Shown in pieces: positions 10,256 to 54,959 of a stretch of DNA of 64,000 nucleotides; position 1 is the stretch's first letter; every line of letters starts with the position of its first letter. The notes below the pieces were generated by a model. The model did not search any database. It was not told where the DNA came from and saw only the letters and a program-made list of their open reading frames with translations. This stretch comes from Eledone cirrhosa (taxonomy: Eukaryota): the NCBI GenBank assembly GCA_964016885.1, contig OZ024742.1, forward strand, positions 256,184,001 to 256,248,000, read 5' to 3'. Both the position numbers and the translations under genes were made by a program.

Positions 10256-10424
10256 CTTTTCGAATATAAATAATAACATTCGATTCGTTTGCAATTATGT
10301 AAACAAGCCTCAATTTTATAGGTCCATTACGAGCAATTTTATAGGTCCATTAGGTGAAACAATTGTTCTCATTATGGCGAACTAACTGTTGTGTAACCAC
10401 TTCTATATATATATATATATATAA

Positions 10425-11970
10425 CCTTACTATACGCACACCTCGCACGAACACCATCTACTTCCTCCCCAGAATACACAACCAAAATAATCCCGGCCGT
10501 CCTATCGTTTCCGTGTGCAACTGCATTACCGAGATGATTTCTGAATATTTAGACATCATCCTTGCCCCGTTAGTCGTCAATCTCCCCTCCCACATCCACG
10601 ATACCAATCATGCCATTATACTCTTCAACTCCTTCTCCTTCTCTCTTGGTCCTTCTCGCCTTTTCTTTACCCTGGAAATAACCCCTCTATATACCGTCAT
10701 TCCTCATACCGCGTACCTCAACATTACCACTCTTCTTCATCTGGCCGAGCTTGTACTGACCTTCAATGGCTTTACCTTTACGGGTGAATTATATCAGAAG
10801 GTCTCTGGGGTACCGATGTGAACAAGAATGGGACCGAACTATGCTATCTTGTTTGTTTACTACTTCGAAGCCCAGATCTTCTCCCAGTACGCTAGACCGA
10901 CTCCTGAACTATAAGGTCGTTATATCGACGATTGTATCGACGCCACCTCTCTATCACAAGAAGAGCTCGACTGCTTTCTTTTTTTTTGTCCTATCTTTAC
11001 AACCTGCTCTCACCTTCACCGCCTCCGTCTCCAATTTTTCTCACTCTTTTCTAGATATCTCTCTATCTGCCAATCACTCTCACCACACCCCTCTCTACTT
11101 CCATCTTCTATAGACCAACAGACTCCCAATCTTACCTCAACTCCACCTCCTCCCATCCAACCCACACCAAACACTCCATACCCTATTCAAAATTCCTCCG
11201 TCTTCGTCGGCTCTGTAGCCATTGAAACCCACTCCCTTCACATGGCTTCCCGCTTTATCTAGCGTAGATATTTCCCGCCCTCATCCAAGCTGCTCTAACC
11301 CGCGCCCGTGAAACCAACCCTACCACAGCCCTCTCACCTCAGCAGCGCCATCCTATCACCTGCGTTCATTTCCCTCTCACATACCACCCCATCACCCTAC
11401 CACTCCGACGACATATCCTCCGTTCCTTCAGCATCCTCTCTTCTGACTGGGTCTCTTCTCGCTTTTTTCCAAACCCACCTATTACTGCATTTAAGCGAGC
11501 CCGCAACCTACACGTCCCCTGGTACGCAGTTTCTTCTCGTCCTCTCTAACGACACCACCCGACTCTCATCCTTCATCTGGTCCCCGCTTCAACATTTGTT
11601 CCTTCATTTCGACCCTCACCACTTCACAGGTTCTAACGGGTCATTCAGTATCAACCCGCTCTCACCTGCACATCCACTCACGTTGTCTATGCCCTGCGGT
11701 GTTCCTTTTGCGGGTCTTTATACATCGGACAAACGGGATGCCGTATGGCGGACCGTTTTGCTGAGCATTTGAGGGACATACGACACGGTTTGGATAATCG
11801 TGTCGCCCGTAATTTCTGTTCTACTGGTCATTCTTCCCTACGTGTCTCAGTCCTGGGTGACCTTTTCATCATGGATAACAGGCCTCGCGCACTAGGACTG
11901 AACAGAGTCTGATTCACCGCCTTGGGTCCTATTTCCTCATGGACTGAACTCAGCTCCACAATTTCTTCAA
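10425..11970 (+). mobile_element. Degraded Penelope-like retroelement (RT + GIY-YIG endonuclease) with frameshifts
   Basis: IYFLPRIHNQNNPGRPIVS, LYQKVSGVPM, RYIDD, FLDISL, HSIPYSKFLRLRRLCS, then HVVYALRCSFCGSLYIGQTGCRMADRFAEH. Confidence 0.92.
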
Positions 11971-12283
11971 TATGCCGTCCATTATAACATGCACTTTTAT
12001 ATTCAACCCTAGATTCCTATCGCTCTCTTATGATCAGAGACATATTCTCTTACAGCTAATACAAACCGACAAAATATGGACACTCCGCTTTTCCCTTCAC
12101 AGCTCTGTATACACACATACACACCCTTATATTAACATATTTTTGCTCATAGCTTCGTACCTTCTGGCACACACACACTCTATTACTTACATATACACGC
12201 ACATTTCTTCTTATCTTCATACGGGCATATAATAACAAAGACACGCGCAAATACACACATGCACACACAGACACACACACACA

Positions 12284-25160: not shown

Positions 25161-26400
25161 AAAGGTAATGAATACAAAGAGTTTAAAACCGTTAAAACAT
25201 GTTTATATAATTGTGCACCTACGTACGTTTCGCCCTGAGCGGTTTTCAATGGAATGGAAAGCAAAATAATGTTCAATATAGGACCCAGGAGGGAATTTAC
25301 GGTTAAATTAGCATCATTCATTTTCCTCTCTGTGCATGTGTTTTTATTATCACAGAGCAGGGGGAGTAACTCTGGCCGGTGTTCCAGCAATCAGTCCCAT
25401 GTGAATTTTAATGCCTGTCCATATACTGATGTTTCGCATCTTTATGTTATGTGTGTTGTTTCACTAGTGCCAGTACAGGTCGAGTCTGATGTGTCCATTT
25501 ATTATTTAATGGATGTTGCTTCACTAATGTTTGTTCGAGTATGGTCTGCGGTGTACATTTGGTTCACAGATGTTTGTTCATACTGCGTGCCCACCGGGGG
25601 TTATGGTTCGGGCAGGAGCACCCAGTTCGTAGTTTTCATGTCACAGTCGCCTCCCAGGCAAAATACGACACCTGTACCCGGTGTTTACAATTAATAACTG
25701 ATTCTGCTCGGCTATTTAAGGGCTCATGGGGTGTTCTTATGATGTAGTACAACTCCATGAGGCAAAGCTGGCATTTCCCCCTGAAGTTGTAGGGTGCAGC
25801 CCTACTGACAATATCCCAATGTGTGGAGAAGCATATGTTGGCGTCTTGCAATGTGGTGACATAGTTTGCAAGCGATGTGGAGTGCCTTAATTTTTTGTTC
25901 CTGAAAGAGTGGAGATGCGTTCTAAATCTCGTTTTAAACTGGCCAGAGGTGGCTCCAATATAGTGTTTAACTCCGCTATGGCTAGTTACGGTACACCTAT
26001 AAACAACCTTATCAGTCAGGCATTTTCGCCTGAGAGGGCAGCCTCCCTGTCACGACAGTTGCATTTTCCGTCGCGGTCGCTCCTAGTTCCTAAAGTAAAG
26101 CTATTACTATTGCTATCTATGTTGTTATCTATGTCTCTAGCTCCATCATTGGTACTGTTATCTCTCGAGGCCTGCGGTGTTGTACCATTATTATTCCGCA
26201 CGCCGCAGCCCATTCGGCTGCCGGTGGGTGACGCATGTGGGTCGCCGGTATATTCTCCAATCACGCCTTGGTTACGTGGGTTTCGTCTGCCGTGGCGGCC
26301 ATCCACCCCATTTGGTGCTGTTAGGGGCTTGTTAAGGTTAATAGTGTTGTTGTCATGTCTAGATGTATCTGTGCTAAGGTGTGGTGTTTTGCTGTGCTGA
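25160..26400 (-). mobile_element. 3' end of a second PLE type (Naiad-like Cys-rich GIY-YIG) with hammerhead remnant at 25216-25254
   Basis: Minus, with a frameshift: CNCRDRE..CLTDKVVYRCTV..YIGATSGQFKTRFRTH..WDIVSRAAPY..CQLCLMELYYII..LNSRAE..CKH; TTGAAAA-ccgctcagggc-GAAA-cgtacg-TA. Confidence 0.85.
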
Positions 26401-35440: not shown

Positions 35441-37169
35441 AGAAAACACAGGTAAGCATTAAGAGAAGGATTTTATCCAGGTATTTACAACCGTTTCATT
35501 GGTAAGTGCAACCTTATATTGCTATACTGCAAATAGCAGCCACTCTATTATAATTGTTGTTCACGTCCAAATTTTCAAAATAGTTGGTAAGTTACTCTTG
35601 AAATAGTTCTTAATATATAGAGAAAAACATTTTGGGGGAATTGTATTTACTTGTATAGAGAGAGAAGAAGAGGAATTAGAAGGTGAGGGGACAAACGGAA
35701 TATTATAGAGAGAGGGGAAGGGGGAAAAGAGTTAGGAAGTAGAGTGACAAACTTTGATGGAGGGAGGGGTAGAGGTGGAAGGATTCCTTCATCAGTTTTG
35801 ATATGTATACTTCATGTCGTGGTGTGTAGTGAGTTAAAGAGAATTAAATTGATCATAGTGGAAGGGATGGATAGAGAGAGAGGGGGAAAGATATACAGAG
35901 ATAAATATATATATAAAAAATAAAAGCAAATAATAGGAAGAAAGAAGAAAAGAAAAGATAGCCAAAAAGGGGAGGGAAGGAAGGAAGAAATGAAGAAATA
36001 GAAGTGGAATGAAGGAGAAAGGAGGGATATAGGTATTGGTTTTTGTGGGTAATTAAAAGGGTTTAGATACAATAAGAGGGTATAAATTCTAAGTATATGC
36101 AGTTTGTCAGTTGGTAGTAAGAGGTTAAGTGTTCGATTTGCACTTGTAGTGCGAAAACCTTCCTTTCAGACTATGGTTACAATAAATTGATCTTTCGATT
36201 TTATTGTTGAGTAACTTATTCTTCGAACTCAAAATGTGGAACAGCTCAAGGTCACATAATCGACAGCTTCTCATACCACGCAGCATATCCCTTAGGGTCT
36301 CCGCCCCCCTCTAACCGACAAATCCTCGAGGAACATGCAGAATACTACAATACCGCATTAGACAAGGCAGGCCACTTAGATAGAGTAGAATATATAGATG
36401 AAAGCCTCCACAAAGCATACACGAACACGCATAACACAAACTCCAGAAACACACTCACACACGCACTTACGCATAGAACTACAAAGTATACGGTAAATAG
36501 AAATACAACATCGAAATCAAACAAGTCACGCAGTAGAAAATATATTTGGTATAACCCCATATTTATCTCTTTATATCACCCCCTCTCTCTCTCTCTATCC
36601 ATCCCTCCCTCCCTCTATGATCAATGTAATTCTCTTTAACTCACTACACTCCACGACATGAAGTCTACATATCAAAACTGATCAAGGAATCATTCCACCT
36701 CTACCCCTCCCTCCATCTCAGTTTATCACTCTACTTTCTAACACTTCTCCCCCTTCCTCTCTCTCTATACTATTCCGTTTGTCCCCTCACCTTCTAATTC
36801 CTCTTCCTCTCTCTCTATACTAGTAAACACAATTCCAAATAAATGTTTTTCTCTATATATTAAGAACTATTTCAAGAGTAACTTACTCACTATTTTGAAA
36901 ATTTGGACGTGAACAACAATTAATATTGAGTGGCTGCTATTTGCAGTATAGCAATATAAGGTTTCACTTACCAATGAAACAGTCGCAAATACCTGGATAA
37001 AATCATTCTCTTAATGCTTACTTGTGTTTTCTCTTTTATACTTTATACTCCAAGATTGAACGGAATTCTTACAAACTTGTGGAGTTACCCCTAACCGTAC
37101 GTTGAAACCATCCATGAAAATGGCTTTCTTAACCACGAACTGGATGACAATAAGCAATTTTCTGCTTCG

Positions 37170-37959: not shown

Positions 37960-38521
37960 TAAACAGTTATTAGCTTGGTAAAGAGTAAGTTAAGCGGCTT
38001 GGGCACGTTGGGGCAGGGGTTTTCTATACATACTGGACCACGGGTAAAGCAATATTTGAATGAGTTTCGTAATAGCTATACCATAGCACCTGAATATAAA
38101 GCAGCAGGTAATTTATTTATAATAATCAAAAACACAACCTACAGATTTTAGCTAGGGAGTTAGAATGTGCTGTTAGTTATAATTTTATAATTTTAGTGCT
38201 AATGGAACATACAAGCTGAGTCCGTGAAATATTATTCAGCTGATAGTAAAGCTTAAGTTTGAAGTAGAGGATCTGAAGGATTGCCAGTTGAAAGAGGAGG
38301 ATGTGTGTGTTCCTAGAGTATTTTGGATACCCAAGCTGCAGAAAGCACCATTTGGGTGTAGATATATAGTCGGAGCTAGTAATTGCACTAACAGACAAGT
38401 AGCTATTTTAGATAACGAATATCTTGCAGTAGTTAAAGTGGATTTTGATAGAAATTATGGTGCTATTCTTGCAAATAATGGAATGGATATGAGATGTGTG
38501 TATGTGTGTATGTGTCTGCGC

Positions 38522-38596
<75 letters not shown>

Positions 38597-39520
38597 CGTG
38601 CGCGTCTGTGTGTGTGTGTGTAGATAGATAGATACATGGAAATACATTTGAACAGATGGAGTATAGGATCTACCAATCCGATTTTAAAACAGATTGGATA
38701 GATTAAAGTCGATATAAACAATGCACGTATATGATCTTTCCACCCTTTATAATTGTTTGGAACAGGAGCAAGTTAACAATGGGGTGATTAGTATAATACT
38801 CATGGTTTTCGGTAATAAATTCAAGTATGTTTCCTTAAAAAACGGCAAGGGCTTCATGTCTAGAGTAAGGTACAGCAGATACACTAGTTGCTGAAATGTT
38901 ACACCCATGCAATTGGTCCGATTTATAATGGACAGTTCTTACATTGCACTCGAGAGTAATATTTTCAAGCAGTTAAATGTCATACCAATGGGCGGATTTA
39001 TATCTATCTTCTTGTAAGTTTGACTATCTAGAATGTTTAGGAAGGTTTAAGAGAATAGGCCTAATTAGGAATTTTGCTGGATGTTTTAGGCATAGCGTTG
39101 ACATATTTGTTCCTAGTTATCGGCATTTCAAAGTTTGCTACATAAGATCAACCCGAAGAGTTTAAAAGTGAATATGAATGCATGTGACTTTAGTAATGTT
39201 AATTATTTAGACGTCACAGTTGAAATGTTAGGTGAAACGTTATACAGAAAAGCTTTCAATAAAAACAAAGGATTTTAGCTTTAAGATCACTTGGATGCCT
39301 TTTGCATATAGCCGTGCTCTAACATTCTTAGGATACAATGTCTTTTTAACCAAGTTGTACGTTATAGTAGAATGAATAGCTAGATGAATATTTTTACGGA
39401 AGTAATGAATACACATTTAAAACACATGGTAGGACAGATACAAAAAGAAATATCTAATACGGCGTTTTCATAGGTACCTTGACGCTAAAAAGAAAATTTT
39501 GGGAAAATGTGGATTCATTT
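37960..39520 (+). mobile_element. Degraded Penelope-like RT, interrupted by (GT)n
   Basis: VPRVFWIPKLQKAPFGCRYIVGASNCT, WADLYLSSCKFDYL, FRHSVDIF (RYIDD position), VNYLDVTVE, FNQVVRYSR. Confidence 0.8.
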
Positions 39521-51046: not shown

Positions 51047-51188
51047 CACAAACAAGATGTGGTAAGATACCAGGCGGACCATAAGGCACCAGAGTACTTC
51101 ATACTCGGGGTAGTAGCGTGGGTAATATGAAAAGAGTTCGTATCTAGCTGTCGAAACGACCCGATCTCAGTCGTCGGCGTCCTGACTC

Positions 51189-51196
<8 letters not shown>
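51047..51196. mobile_element. Short PLE-type insert (7014 family) with inversion: tail on minus, HHR 3' half on plus
   Basis: gtggtaagataccaggcggaccataag tail, then tagctgtc-GAAAcgac-ccgatctca-gtcgTC-ggcgtcctgact. Confidence 0.65.
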
Positions 51197-51232
<36 letters not shown>

Positions 51233-52166
51233 GGGGGCGGGTGTTTGTGTGCGTGATTGTGTGTGTGGGTGTACTTATTTCCATATACGTAGGCATATAT
51301 GAGTTTGTGTGTGGATGTGTATGTGTATCCATATCTATTTTATATATAAACAGTATAAAAATAGGTGATCTTAACTGAGTTTATTTTCTGAAAGCGGACT
51401 TATCAATTTAGAAATTCCAAATTCCTTCTCTTGTCTAGAAGACTGTATACATATTATATAACATCATACTGCGCAAAACACACTTACATCATTAATCAAA
51501 CTGTCAGCTTAAATTATATGGAATAACTCTCCTGTATAAGTGGAGCCATGACCAAGACTGTTGTATCAGTTGTGATATTTTGCATGAAAAAATCCATCTG
51601 AGTATTAATCCATTAATCACATTTCACATGACAGTCTTAATGAATTAAGCATGCGTATTTCAAATGTTATATATCCCCGTTCAGTTTCTAGAACATTTCT
51701 TACTTCTTATTCTCTTATCATTTCATCTCAATTGCATTGATATAAAATGTCTGAAATTTCGGTTTGTAGATTTACGGCTGAGAACTCGGGTTTAGTGTAT
51801 CGAAATTATCCAGTATTTTGCATCTGTTACTATGTTTCGACCACAGCAATTCTGTTGGAGAGCAAAACACATAAATCAGGCAGAAAATATTTGTCTGGAC
51901 TTTTTTCAGAACCGATAAACGATAACATACATGTACAATAGGAAACAAACACACACTAATATATTGATATAAATATACATGTACACATAAATATAAATAT
52001 GTGTATTTACATAATTACTTATATATTTATATAAAAGTTTATCGTTTACCGTTTATCGTTTTCGGTGCACCCAGCCGATTAAACCACTCGATATGCAAAT
52101 TGGGCTACTCAGCCGTTAATGTGCATAAGGTTATAATATACGTTCAGCAATCTGGCAGGAAGGTAT

Positions 52167-52209
52167 ACGTTGTTGACGATAGCTAATAAGCTTGAAACTA
52201 GTACAGCGT
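52167..52209 (+). ncRNA. Minimal type I hammerhead (C3U variant)
   Basis: acgttg-TTGACGA-tagc-taataa-gctt-GAAA-ctag-TA-cagcgt. Confidence 0.75.
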
Positions 52210-52586
52210 TCCTTTGTCAGTGTTGAACAAACTAGCAACGATGGTTGCTAGACAATACGGCTTAATACGGGATGTTTGTTTACAAACACACCGAGCATTA
52301 TAATAAATGTTCGGTGAATCCATACGTACATATATATATGTGTGCATATATGTATATATATGTACATACTATTGTACGTCTGTATACATATATGTATGTA
52401 CGTGTACATACTTATATTTAAGTAACAGCCGTACTAAAAGTGGGAAATGGAATTTCGTTTCATTTTTTCCGTTTATCGTTTTCGGTGCACCCGGCTGATT
52501 AACCCACTCGATATGCAAATTGGGCTACTCAGCCGTTAATGTGTATAAGGTAAGTATATACGTTCAACAATCTGCCAGGAAGGTAT

Positions 52587-52629
52587 ACGTTGCTGACGAT
52601 AGCTAATAAGCTTGAAACTAGTACAGCGT
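52587..52629 (+). ncRNA. Minimal type I hammerhead with canonical core
   Basis: acgttg-CTGACGA-tagc-taataa-gctt-GAAA-ctag-TA-cagcgt; palindromic ACUAGU stem III; GUA triplet. Confidence 0.88.
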
Positions 52630-52872
52630 TCCTTTGTCAGTGTTGAACAAACGAGCAACGATGGTTGCTAGACACTACGGCTTAATACGGGATGTTTGTT
52701 TACAAACACACCGAGCATTATAATAAATGTTCGGTGAATTTATACGTACATATATATATATATATGTGTGCATGTATGTATATATATGTACATACTACTG
52801 TACGTCTGTATACATATATGTATGTACATACTTATATATAAAAGTATTTGTGCAAATATGTATCTACTTGTA

Positions 52873-53423: not shown

Positions 53424-53597
53424 CGAATACACACAAATATATCTACGTATATATAAATTCTGATGGGAATTAATTCCCATCGTTGAACGAAGAAACTTAG
53501 CTTTTTACGCCAACTGAACACGTCTCTGTACTGAGGTATCGACATACGGGTGGAACACGTAATACCGGATGTTTTCAAAGTTTTGTGTCGTATCTGA

Positions 53598-53700
53598 AAT
53601 GGCTGAAGATTAGATCATTCTCAACTGAACAGCTTAGTATATAATTTCAATATTCATAGTTGTGTATCAACGACAACTCTATGAAACTAGTTGTAAAATG
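53598..53700 (+). ncRNA. Possible degenerate extended hammerhead
   Basis: CTGAAGA-ttaga...tctat-GAAA-ctagttg-TA; stem I poorly paired; segment lies between (TA)n tracts. Confidence 0.35.
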
Positions 53701-54959
53701 AAATTCGTCTAAATGAATATATATATATATATATATTAGAGGCAATCTAGCACATTCCGTGCTAAATACATCCAATAACTTCCGGAATTATTTTGTCAAT
53801 CGTATCGGTTATTCGAACCTTTTGGTACGAATTATAACAAACTTGCTCTGGTACTAAGAAACAAATCACCAAGGGTCCCTTTTTAATGAAAATGTTCCAA
53901 TATATTTTCATGCACAGTCAAGGACATATCTTAGCAATAATATATTTTAAAAATCAAAAATTGTTCTTAATTGAAATACGGCTTATATCATTAGAAACAC
54001 AGTAGCTATATTCATCTCAACACATAAATACTACACCACCCACGCTTGCAGTGTTTCTGAGGCTTTCCAAATTCATCAAAAAGGTCACGCCAAAAGATTT
54101 CAGGAATCTTGCGCAAACTCTCTTGATGGAAAACATATTTTCTTGTACAAAACATAAATATTTATTTGTTCCTCTGTTCACCGTATTGTCATTTCTTTGT
54201 CTTTTTAACATCTTTACTGAAATCCTCAAATTCGAAACTAATTGGCTGATTTTAGTGTCTATACAAATCTTCACACTGCACCTATTTCTTGCTACCTACA
54301 CAGACTTTACCTTTCCTTATCACCTTTCAAGTCTTGTTCAAGGATCGCAACGATTATAGAATAATGTTGCTGAACATATTGATACAAACATTCATTCATT
54401 TAAAGTTAAAAGAGATTGATTTCAACTGCCTGCCCAGAGAAATAGATAGTATAGGATTTATATTGGCTTTTAGAAAAATTATATTTGTAGAGTGTTCACG
54501 TCTTCATTACAAGGTTAGATTAAAGGCTTTGGGGTATCCACTCCAGGTTTGTGCTCTGATTGGAAGTCCAACCGGGAATACGTTTGCCTTTCATCCTTTA
54601 AGTATACATAGATAATCTACCAATTCAATACTGAGGTCGATTCTTCTTATTTTTCTTCTTCTTCTTCTTCTTCTTCTTCTTCTTCTTCTTCTTCTTCTTC
54701 TTCTTCTTCTTCCCCTTCCCTCTGCCTCTCCTCTATTTTTCAGTCCCTATCTTTCTGTGGAAGTAAATGGCAGTTGTCAGACTTATTGGGTTTACAACGC
54801 CTCTATCTCAAAATCAGGAATTATCGGATCAATGATATGTCCATATCTACATGTAACAGATACATAAGTATATTTCACTAACTCAGCGTAAGTGTGCTAT
54901 ATGTGGTTTTAGTTGTAAACACTAAAAATAAGAACTTAATCTCATCTCAATTTCGATAG

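What the first reader, a model, noticed from the sequence alone, without database searches (positions are those of the whole stretch)
52049..52840. Exact 420-nt tandem retrozyme-like dimer: candidate circular RNA template
Seen: two near-identical units in perfect register, each with a minimal HHR; predicted cuts after 52203 and 52623 would release a 420-nt non-coding monomer. Stem III is the palindrome ACUAGU. Established: minimal HHRs with palindromic stem III can cleave as dimers, and tandem non-LTR retrozymes produce small circRNAs in other metazoans. Inference: a cephalopod retrozyme; copy 1 has C3U and may be impaired.
Basis: partly seen in the sequence, partly recalled or inferred. Interest (0 to 1): 0.72.

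Follow-up and report, generated by a model that had tools for sequence, protein, structure and literature searches.

The report
Octopus retrozyme with Penelope insertion scars
This is one ageing copy of a protein-free 420-base repeat, present thousands of times in a likely octopus genome, that carries a predicted self-cutting RNA motif and was likely pasted in by Penelope-type jumping-gene enzymes; the kind is known, and whether its RNA forms a circle is untested.

Summary
The hammerheads are real and 420 nt apart, but the repeat is 1.9 units at about 94% identity, not an exact dimer. It is one dispersed insertion (11-bp target duplication) of a family with at least 9,247 units. Sister families add about 23,700 more hammerheads with covarying stems. 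Copies show the Penelope-like-element (PLE) footprint: random 5' truncation, (TA)n targets, inverted second arms and two fixed 3' ends 59 nt apart. In 32 of 34 two-armed insertions with both ends classified, each arm uses a different end. An autonomous PLE-type element in the genome behaves alike (60-nt tail) but shares no detected sequence. Copies read through the cut site (1 stop in 88 arrivals), so cleaved linear monomers are not the template; a circle or an uncut multimer is. No RNA data were available. This locus carries C3U in one ribozyme and is probably a decayed daughter. Verdict: a new member of a known kind (non-LTR retrozyme, a non-autonomous PLE). The scan reported this before on other DNA of this and other genomes (56 notes hold my search words).

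The parts
52028..52038 (+). Left target-site duplication (11 bp)
   Evidence: Identical to 52835-52845. L003 also shows an 11-bp non-simple duplication; most targets are (TA)n and unreadable.
52039..52048 (+). 10 extra nt at the 5' junction, partly repeating unit phases 270-278; likely a template slip
   Evidence: Sequence, alignment; cause inferred
52049..52203 (+). 5'-truncated first unit (phases 266-420; phase 1 = first nt after the cut)
52093..52100 (+). Octamer ATGCAAAT, copy 1; candidate internal promoter element
   Evidence: Position. Invariant in all four aligned family sequences. Function inferred.
52142..52228 (+). Hammerhead 1 with extended stem I; core 52173-52203 carries C3U; predicted cut after 52203
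   Evidence: C3U in 113 copies versus 5,299 with C.
52204..52623 (+). The only complete cut-to-cut monomer, 420 nt, non-coding
   Evidence: 11 substitutions and no gaps against the family consensus from 35 units. Folds at z = -8.8, partly through an AT-rich self-complementary hairpin.
52418..52476 (+). 59-nt PLE-type 'tail' between the two fixed 3' ends of the family (end A = 52417, end B = 52476), with a hairpin
   Evidence: 111 of 138 arm ends fall at these two phases. Loose (AT)n ends at 52476 in run X1.
52513..52520 (+). Octamer ATGCAAAT, copy 2
52562..52648 (+). Hammerhead 2 with intact core and extended stem I; predicted cut after 52623
52624..52837 (+). Last partial unit, ending at 3' end A (phase 214); its final TAT overlaps the target duplication
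52835..52845 (+). Right target-site duplication

Best explanation
The repeat is one 5'-truncated insertion of a high-copy, non-coding, hammerhead-bearing element (a non-LTR retrozyme) that was likely copied into AT-rich DNA by the reverse transcriptase-endonuclease of an autonomous Penelope-like element. Shown: the dispersed family, the target duplication, (TA)n flanks, random 5' ends, two fixed 3' ends 59 nt apart, head-to-head arms that use one end each, and read-through of the cut site. Inferred: (1) units are transcribed, perhaps helped by the conserved octamer; (2) a PLE protein nicks both strands of a TA-rich target, and each strand primes reverse transcription at one of two internal sites flanking the tail, both ending in UAU; (3) the template has no end at the ribozyme cut, so it is either a circle made by double self-cleavage and host ligation (I put this at about 45%) or an uncut multimer; (4) long arrays later grow at DNA level. 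This copy has since decayed (C3U) and is likely a daughter, not a source.
For: 5,299 exact hammerhead cores and 9,247 exact matches to a second probe, controls 0. 111 of 138 3' ends at two phases, mostly followed by (TA)n. 51 head-to-head pairs in 106 loci: 32 A+B, 2 B+B, 0 A+A, 17 with an unclassified end. This matches the described PLE tail, inversion and (TA)n bias (PMC8557442) and the two internal RT start sites that define the tail (PMC11167929). An autonomous element with an ORF of about 1,200 aa (37,807 first-look candidates; atlas neighbours with HTH_animal, RVT_1 and GIY-YIG) has two 3' ends about 60 nt apart into (TA)n, and 7 of 7 two-orientation loci have one long and one short end. 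In a sample picked outside the ribozyme, 1 stop in 88 arrivals at the cut. Hammerhead covariation: 92% of cells paired, 8 of 16 pairs with changes on both sides. Units within one insertion agree at subfamily sites (discordance 7.6% same arm, 5.5% paired arms, 37.7% between loci).
Against: No sequence similarity between the unit and the candidate partner's terminal region, so the partner is not identified; only one PLE family's 3' ends were examined. The tail is 59 nt, longer than the 30-40 nt described in the papers read. The UAU/target match differs from the anole PLE, which starts without homology (PMC11167929). Fourteen loci show some allele discordance, and L057, L070, L075 and L079 look chimeric, which a single monomer circle cannot explain. 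In the predicted ensemble of the 1.9-unit RNA, the strand-swapped double hammerhead has probability about 0 and local stem I dominates. Within the family the core mutates as fast as the rest (1.5% versus 1.7%, core set mis-indexed by two positions), and 15 of 79 cores are altered. Minimal PLE hammerheads cleave poorly in vitro (PMC4209133), and only 1 of 9 Xenopus dimers cleaved (10.64898/2026.07.22.740005).
Confidence: 0.85

Rival explanations
1. The template is a ligated 420-nt circle that the PLE enzyme copies round and round from two start sites (rolling-circle target-primed reverse transcription).
For: The ribozyme is kept with covariation in ORF-less families, yet cDNAs cross the cut without stopping; ligation reconciles the two. 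Rare alleles are shared at similar rates in the same arm (1.01/kb), in register (0.82) and off register (0.83), versus 0.04/kb between loci (12, 3 and 3 shared cells; the rarity filter biases the baseline low). Coral, mussel and axolotl retrozymes form circles (PMC7229834).
Against: A homogeneous master array gives the same allele pattern, and long arrays exist (about 50 units). Chimeric arms occur. The dimer fold is not favoured in the prediction. A genomic tandem junction is identical to a circle junction, so DNA cannot prove a circle.
Confidence: 0.45
2. The template is an uncut linear multimer transcribed from tandem master arrays. The hammerhead is slow, protein-dependent or used for another step, and no circle is needed.
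For: [quoted passage not shown] Chimeric arms. Median arm 491 nt, so short masters suffice for most copies.
Against: It does not explain the lineage-level conservation of the core and of the ACUAGU palindrome in about 29,000 motifs. There is no clear pile-up of 5' ends at a start site, and in-register sharing is not higher than off-register sharing.
Confidence: 0.4
3. Ordinary satellite or local tandem duplication of a dead repeat, with no RNA step.
For: Long arrays show 2-unit and 4-unit higher-order repeats, typical of DNA-level amplification (L089, L052 and the 50-unit array).
Against: Dispersal, fixed 3' ends, 5' truncation, inverted arms and target duplications.
Confidence: 0.03
4. Copies are pLTR remnants of an autonomous PLE, and the unit is not itself mobile.
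For: Animal retrozymes resemble pLTRs (10.64898/2026.07.22.740005). I sampled 106 of thousands of loci.
Against: Units join head to tail without any ORF. 3 of 59 unpaired arms have a same-strand PLE fragment within 1 kb upstream, at three different phases.
Confidence: 0.07

Closest known systems
Metazoan non-LTR retrozymes (Cervera and de la Pena 2020, PMC7229834; passages and Discussion read)
   Same: Non-coding tandem units of a few hundred nt, low GC, type I hammerhead in each unit, thousands of copies. The U-U base of stem II recalls axolotl HHR_Amex2.
   Different: 420 nt is slightly above the 170-400 nt RNAs reported. Stem III is minimal (2 bp plus a 2-nt loop). 'Cephalopod' does not occur in the main text. 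Circles were shown there and are untested here.
Animal retrozymes as non-autonomous PLEs (Li, Clavereau, Pollet 2026, 10.64898/2026.07.22.740005; parts 1-3 of 5 read)
   Same: Same conclusion: PLE-dependent tandem hammerhead elements, often monomers or short arrays.
   Different: Their evidence is co-occurrence and pLTR similarity in 35 genomes with no mollusc. Here it is the insertion footprint, and no pLTR homology was found.
EN+ Penelope-like elements (Craig et al. 2021, PMC8557442, passages and section 6; Frangieh et al. 2024, PMC11167929, parts 1-2 of 4; Cervera and de la Pena 2014, PMC4209133, parts 1-2 of 4)
   Same: Partial tandems, 5' truncation, inverted 5'-truncated copy, tail at one end, two internal RT starts, (TA)n bias, minimal hammerhead with palindromic helix III.
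   Different: No ORF; the tail is 59 nt rather than 30-40; the ends match the target by TAT.
Newt satellite 2
   Same: Hammerhead tandem repeat with an internal snRNA-type promoter (seen only as a citing passage in PMC2220036). That this promoter has an octamer is recalled, not read.
   Different: No promoter activity or proximal sequence element was tested here.

Membership tests
Non-LTR retrozyme | Non-coding tandem units of a few hundred nt, each with a type I hammerhead | tested here: met
   13 of 71 sampled arms hold two or more hammerheads.
Non-LTR retrozyme | Dispersed high copy number, no LTRs | tested here: met
   PBS and PPT were not searched for separately.
Non-LTR retrozyme | Two consecutive intact hammerheads at the locus ('active' criterion of Li et al.) | tested here: not met
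   Copy 1 has C3U. This lowers 'active locus', not family membership.
Non-LTR retrozyme | Self-cleavage in vitro or in vivo | not testable with these tools
   Only covariation and folding
Non-LTR retrozyme | Linear and circular monomer RNAs | not testable with these tools
   Needs RNase R northern blots or raw RNA reads
Minimal type I hammerhead | CUGAnGA, stem II, GAAA, NUH site, stem I, palindromic helix III | tested here: met
Minimal type I hammerhead | G10.1-C11.1 pair | tested here: not met
   U-U in this family; G-C in 4 and C-G in 1 of 12 aligned relatives
PLE-mobilised non-autonomous element | Tail defined by two fixed 3' ends | tested here: met
   111 of 138 ends; 58 of 71 in the second sample
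PLE-mobilised non-autonomous element | 5' truncation, partial tandems, inverted 5' copy, microsatellite target | tested here: met
PLE-mobilised non-autonomous element | Sequence similarity to the pLTR of an autonomous partner | tested here: inconclusive
   None to the one family examined; other PLE families not examined
Autonomous PLE | RT plus GIY-YIG ORF | tested here: not met

The most novel reading that the evidence does not exclude
A Penelope-type RT dimer uses a ribozyme-made 420-nt RNA circle as template. It primes from both nicked strands of a (TA)n target at two fixed sites 59 nt apart, one per strand, and rolls round the circle. About 29,000 hammerheads in sister families share one ACUAGU palindrome and could cleave as cross-family heterodimers.
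Probability: 0.35. Interest if true: 0.72.

Novelty: new member of a known kind. Interest (0 to 1): 0.42.

Why it matters
How animal retrozymes get back into DNA has been proposed (PLE enzymes, circular template) but not shown in the papers I read. Here the insertion ends give exact predicted priming sites, a one-end-per-arm rule, and a candidate partner with many long open ORFs in the same genome. The PLE link and the circle-versus-multimer question can therefore be tested in vitro. The locus itself is an ordinary decayed copy.

Tried and rejected
Intron around the ribozyme (AG|GTAAGT ... TTTGTCAG): rejected. No genomic copy is spliced at that donor (one unrelated deletion), and the donor is absent in subfamily 2 and the sister families. 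Apparent within-family conservation of the core (1.0% versus 3.4%): discarded as ascertainment bias, since the loci were picked by the core sequence; the unbiased sample shows no difference. RNA evidence: no RNA holder listed; the four runs laid are contigs of unrecorded kind and show no starts or ends. Rfam: no hammerhead model hit. Pfam and PDB did not classify the PLE ORFs; a pairwise comparison gave only a weak endonuclease-region match. Helitron or MITE reading from the short inverted match at 51910-51926: not supported; it is 17 nt and not shared by other loci. A 5'-end cluster at phases 385-394: not pursued, as it is weak once many windows are considered. ViennaRNA cannot score the monomer active fold (2-nt loop). 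The newt promoter paper was not available. A sequence look-up in earlier findings returned nothing. Rows dropped: overlapping duplicate loci; five or six long arrays in the allele tests; L217 and L227 in the merged set, though both remain.

Full report
Observation. The window holds two copies of a unit spaced exactly 420 nt, 94% identical over 300 ungapped nt (18 differences). Against a consensus from 35 cut-to-cut units the insertion is 1.90 units, from phase 262 to phase 214-218 (phase 1 is the first base after the predicted cut). It is flanked by an 11-bp duplication at 52028-52038 and 52835-52845. Both copies carry a minimal type I hammerhead with palindromic ACUAGU and a GUA site, cutting after 52203 and 52623. 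Copy 1 has C3U. Stem I is extended by three further helices; the outermost is predicted at probabilities 0.83-1.0 in both copies. Rfam does not detect the motif. The host is probably an octopus. That rests on my recall of its typical repeats and on earlier scan notes, not on a test.

Family. The 36-nt core occurs exactly 5,299 times and a 32-nt probe elsewhere in the unit 9,247 times in the 3.0-Gb assembly, with controls 0. The C3U form occurs 113 times, about 2%, similar to background decay (1.5-1.7% per site). Two degenerate patterns give 12,332 and 11,357 further hammerheads with the same palindrome (controls 0 and 20), in tandem units of 456-538 and 466-470 bp. These align with our unit over the whole length and keep the core, the palindrome, the octamer TATGCAAATT and the motif at 3' end B. 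On 12 aligned ribozymes, 92% of cells pair, 8 of 16 pairs change on both sides, and covariation is 0.388 against 0.167 shuffled. The rows represent only about four or five lineages, so this is supportive, not a probability.

Insertion anatomy. In 82 loci (30 picked by similarity, the rest by position on contig C1, duplicates removed), 111 of 138 arm 3' ends fall at phase about 214 (52) or about 273 (59), mostly followed by (TA)n, and 5' ends are spread over all phases. Many insertions have two arms joined head to head. In the merged 106 loci there are 51 such pairs: 32 use one end each, 2 use B twice, none uses A twice, and 17 have an unclassified end. Independent choice would give about half. 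This is the architecture described for PLEs: partial tandems, an inverted truncated copy, a tail at one end and (TA)n bias (PMC8557442). In vitro work on an anole PLE ties the tail to two internal RT start sites and shows that both target strands are nicked and extended (PMC11167929).

Partner. A very abundant element with ORFs open for more than 1,100 codons has RT and GIY-YIG motifs by eye, and its atlas neighbours carry HTH_animal, RVT_1 and GIY-YIG (scores 0.95-0.98). Pfam and PDB gave nothing. Its 3' UTR holds a hammerhead with a non-palindromic stem III. Of 33 terminal matches, 16 are short and 17 long (3 of these continue into a tandem copy), about 60 nt apart, and all 7 two-orientation loci have one of each. 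It shares tail length and target with the retrozyme but no detected sequence, so it is a candidate only. Other PLE families exist and were not examined. No sampled unit looks like a pLTR: 3 of 59 unpaired arms have a same-strand PLE fragment within 1 kb upstream, at different phases.

Template. My first samples were chosen through the ribozyme and are biased toward read-through. I therefore resampled with the probe at phases 67-98: 71 arms in 56 loci, including a few segmental duplicates. One 5' end lies within 5 nt of the cut, in 88 arrivals; the median arm is 491 nt and the longest 3,144. Cleaved linear monomers are therefore not the usual template. Units within one insertion agree at nine subfamily sites far better than loci do (24 of 315 discordant in the same arm, 17 of 309 in paired arms, 37.7% between loci; six long arrays excluded). 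Rare alleles are shared equally in and out of register (small numbers). This fits one repeated unit, either a circle or a homogeneous array. Against a pure monomer circle, four loci look chimeric, and the long arrays show 2- and 4-unit periodicity from later DNA-level growth. The strand-swapped double hammerhead is not favoured in the predicted ensemble, although the palindrome duplex is stable (-4.8 kcal/mol). The papers read report weak cleavage by such motifs (PMC4209133; 1 of 9 dimers in 10.64898/2026.07.22.740005) and no need for cleavage in the anole PLE. Circles are shown for coral, mussel and axolotl retrozymes (PMC7229834). I put the circle at about 45% and the uncut multimer at about 40%.

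Comparison and novelty. It is organised like a non-LTR retrozyme and meets the sequence-level features; cleavage and circles could not be tested. PLE mobilisation was proposed in 2014 and 2020 and argued from co-occurrence and pLTR similarity in 2026. Searches listed no paper describing an octopus retrozyme. 'Retrozyme' and 'octopus' co-occur in the listing only in Craig et al. and in PMC10886601 (listing only, not opened). An Octopus vulgaris repeat annotation has no 'ribozyme' in its main text (PMC13282606, passages). Repbase and supplements were not seen and may already hold the family. The scan has reported the same kind of element and footprint repeatedly on other DNA (consulted after my reading was formed; unchecked AI notes). 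Verdict: real feature, new member of a known kind, decayed locus. The value lies in the family-level footprint that makes the mobilisation mechanism testable. Interest 0.42.

Noticed in passing
window 52093-52100, 52513-52520: The octamer ATGCAAAT is invariant across four diverged family sequences, about 100-130 nt upstream of the cut; a possible internal snRNA-type promoter element, as cited for newt satellite 2.
   Followed up: partly
L149-L153 (for example L150:2353-6066): A young autonomous PLE-type family with 37,807 first-look candidates, ORFs open for more than 1,100 codons, a 3' UTR hammerhead and a 60-nt tail; Pfam misses it.
   Followed up: partly
L089; L090-L092; L164-L183; L234: Arrays of about 10, 50, 30 and 7.5 units; L089 and L090-L092 show 2-unit and 4-unit higher-order repeats, meaning retrozyme insertions turning into satellite DNA.
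   Followed up: partly
window 10354-12000 (+), 25636-26049 (-), 36211-36639 (+), 38228-38623 (+): Broken fragments of several other PLE-like RT/endonuclease genes (recognised by eye, clade names from recall).
   Followed up: no
window 9806 (-), 23446 (-), 26936 (+), 22491 (+), 30748 (-), 41935 (+): Further hammerhead-core-like motifs from other repeat families.
   Followed up: no
window 51050-51195 and 53455-53715: Two short structured repeats between (TA)n tracts; relatives of the first recur beside many loci (L013, L131, L141). Earlier scan notes describe permuted hammerheads in such repeats of this genome; not tested here.
   Followed up: no
L217; L226 and L227: Whole two-armed insertions duplicated locally or about 0.9 Mb apart, with identical junctions (segmental duplication or re-mobilisation).
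   Followed up: no
runs X4, X5 (organisms B and C): Low-depth contigs match the ribozyme region and the downstream part of the unit; this could be related species or cross-contamination.
   Followed up: no
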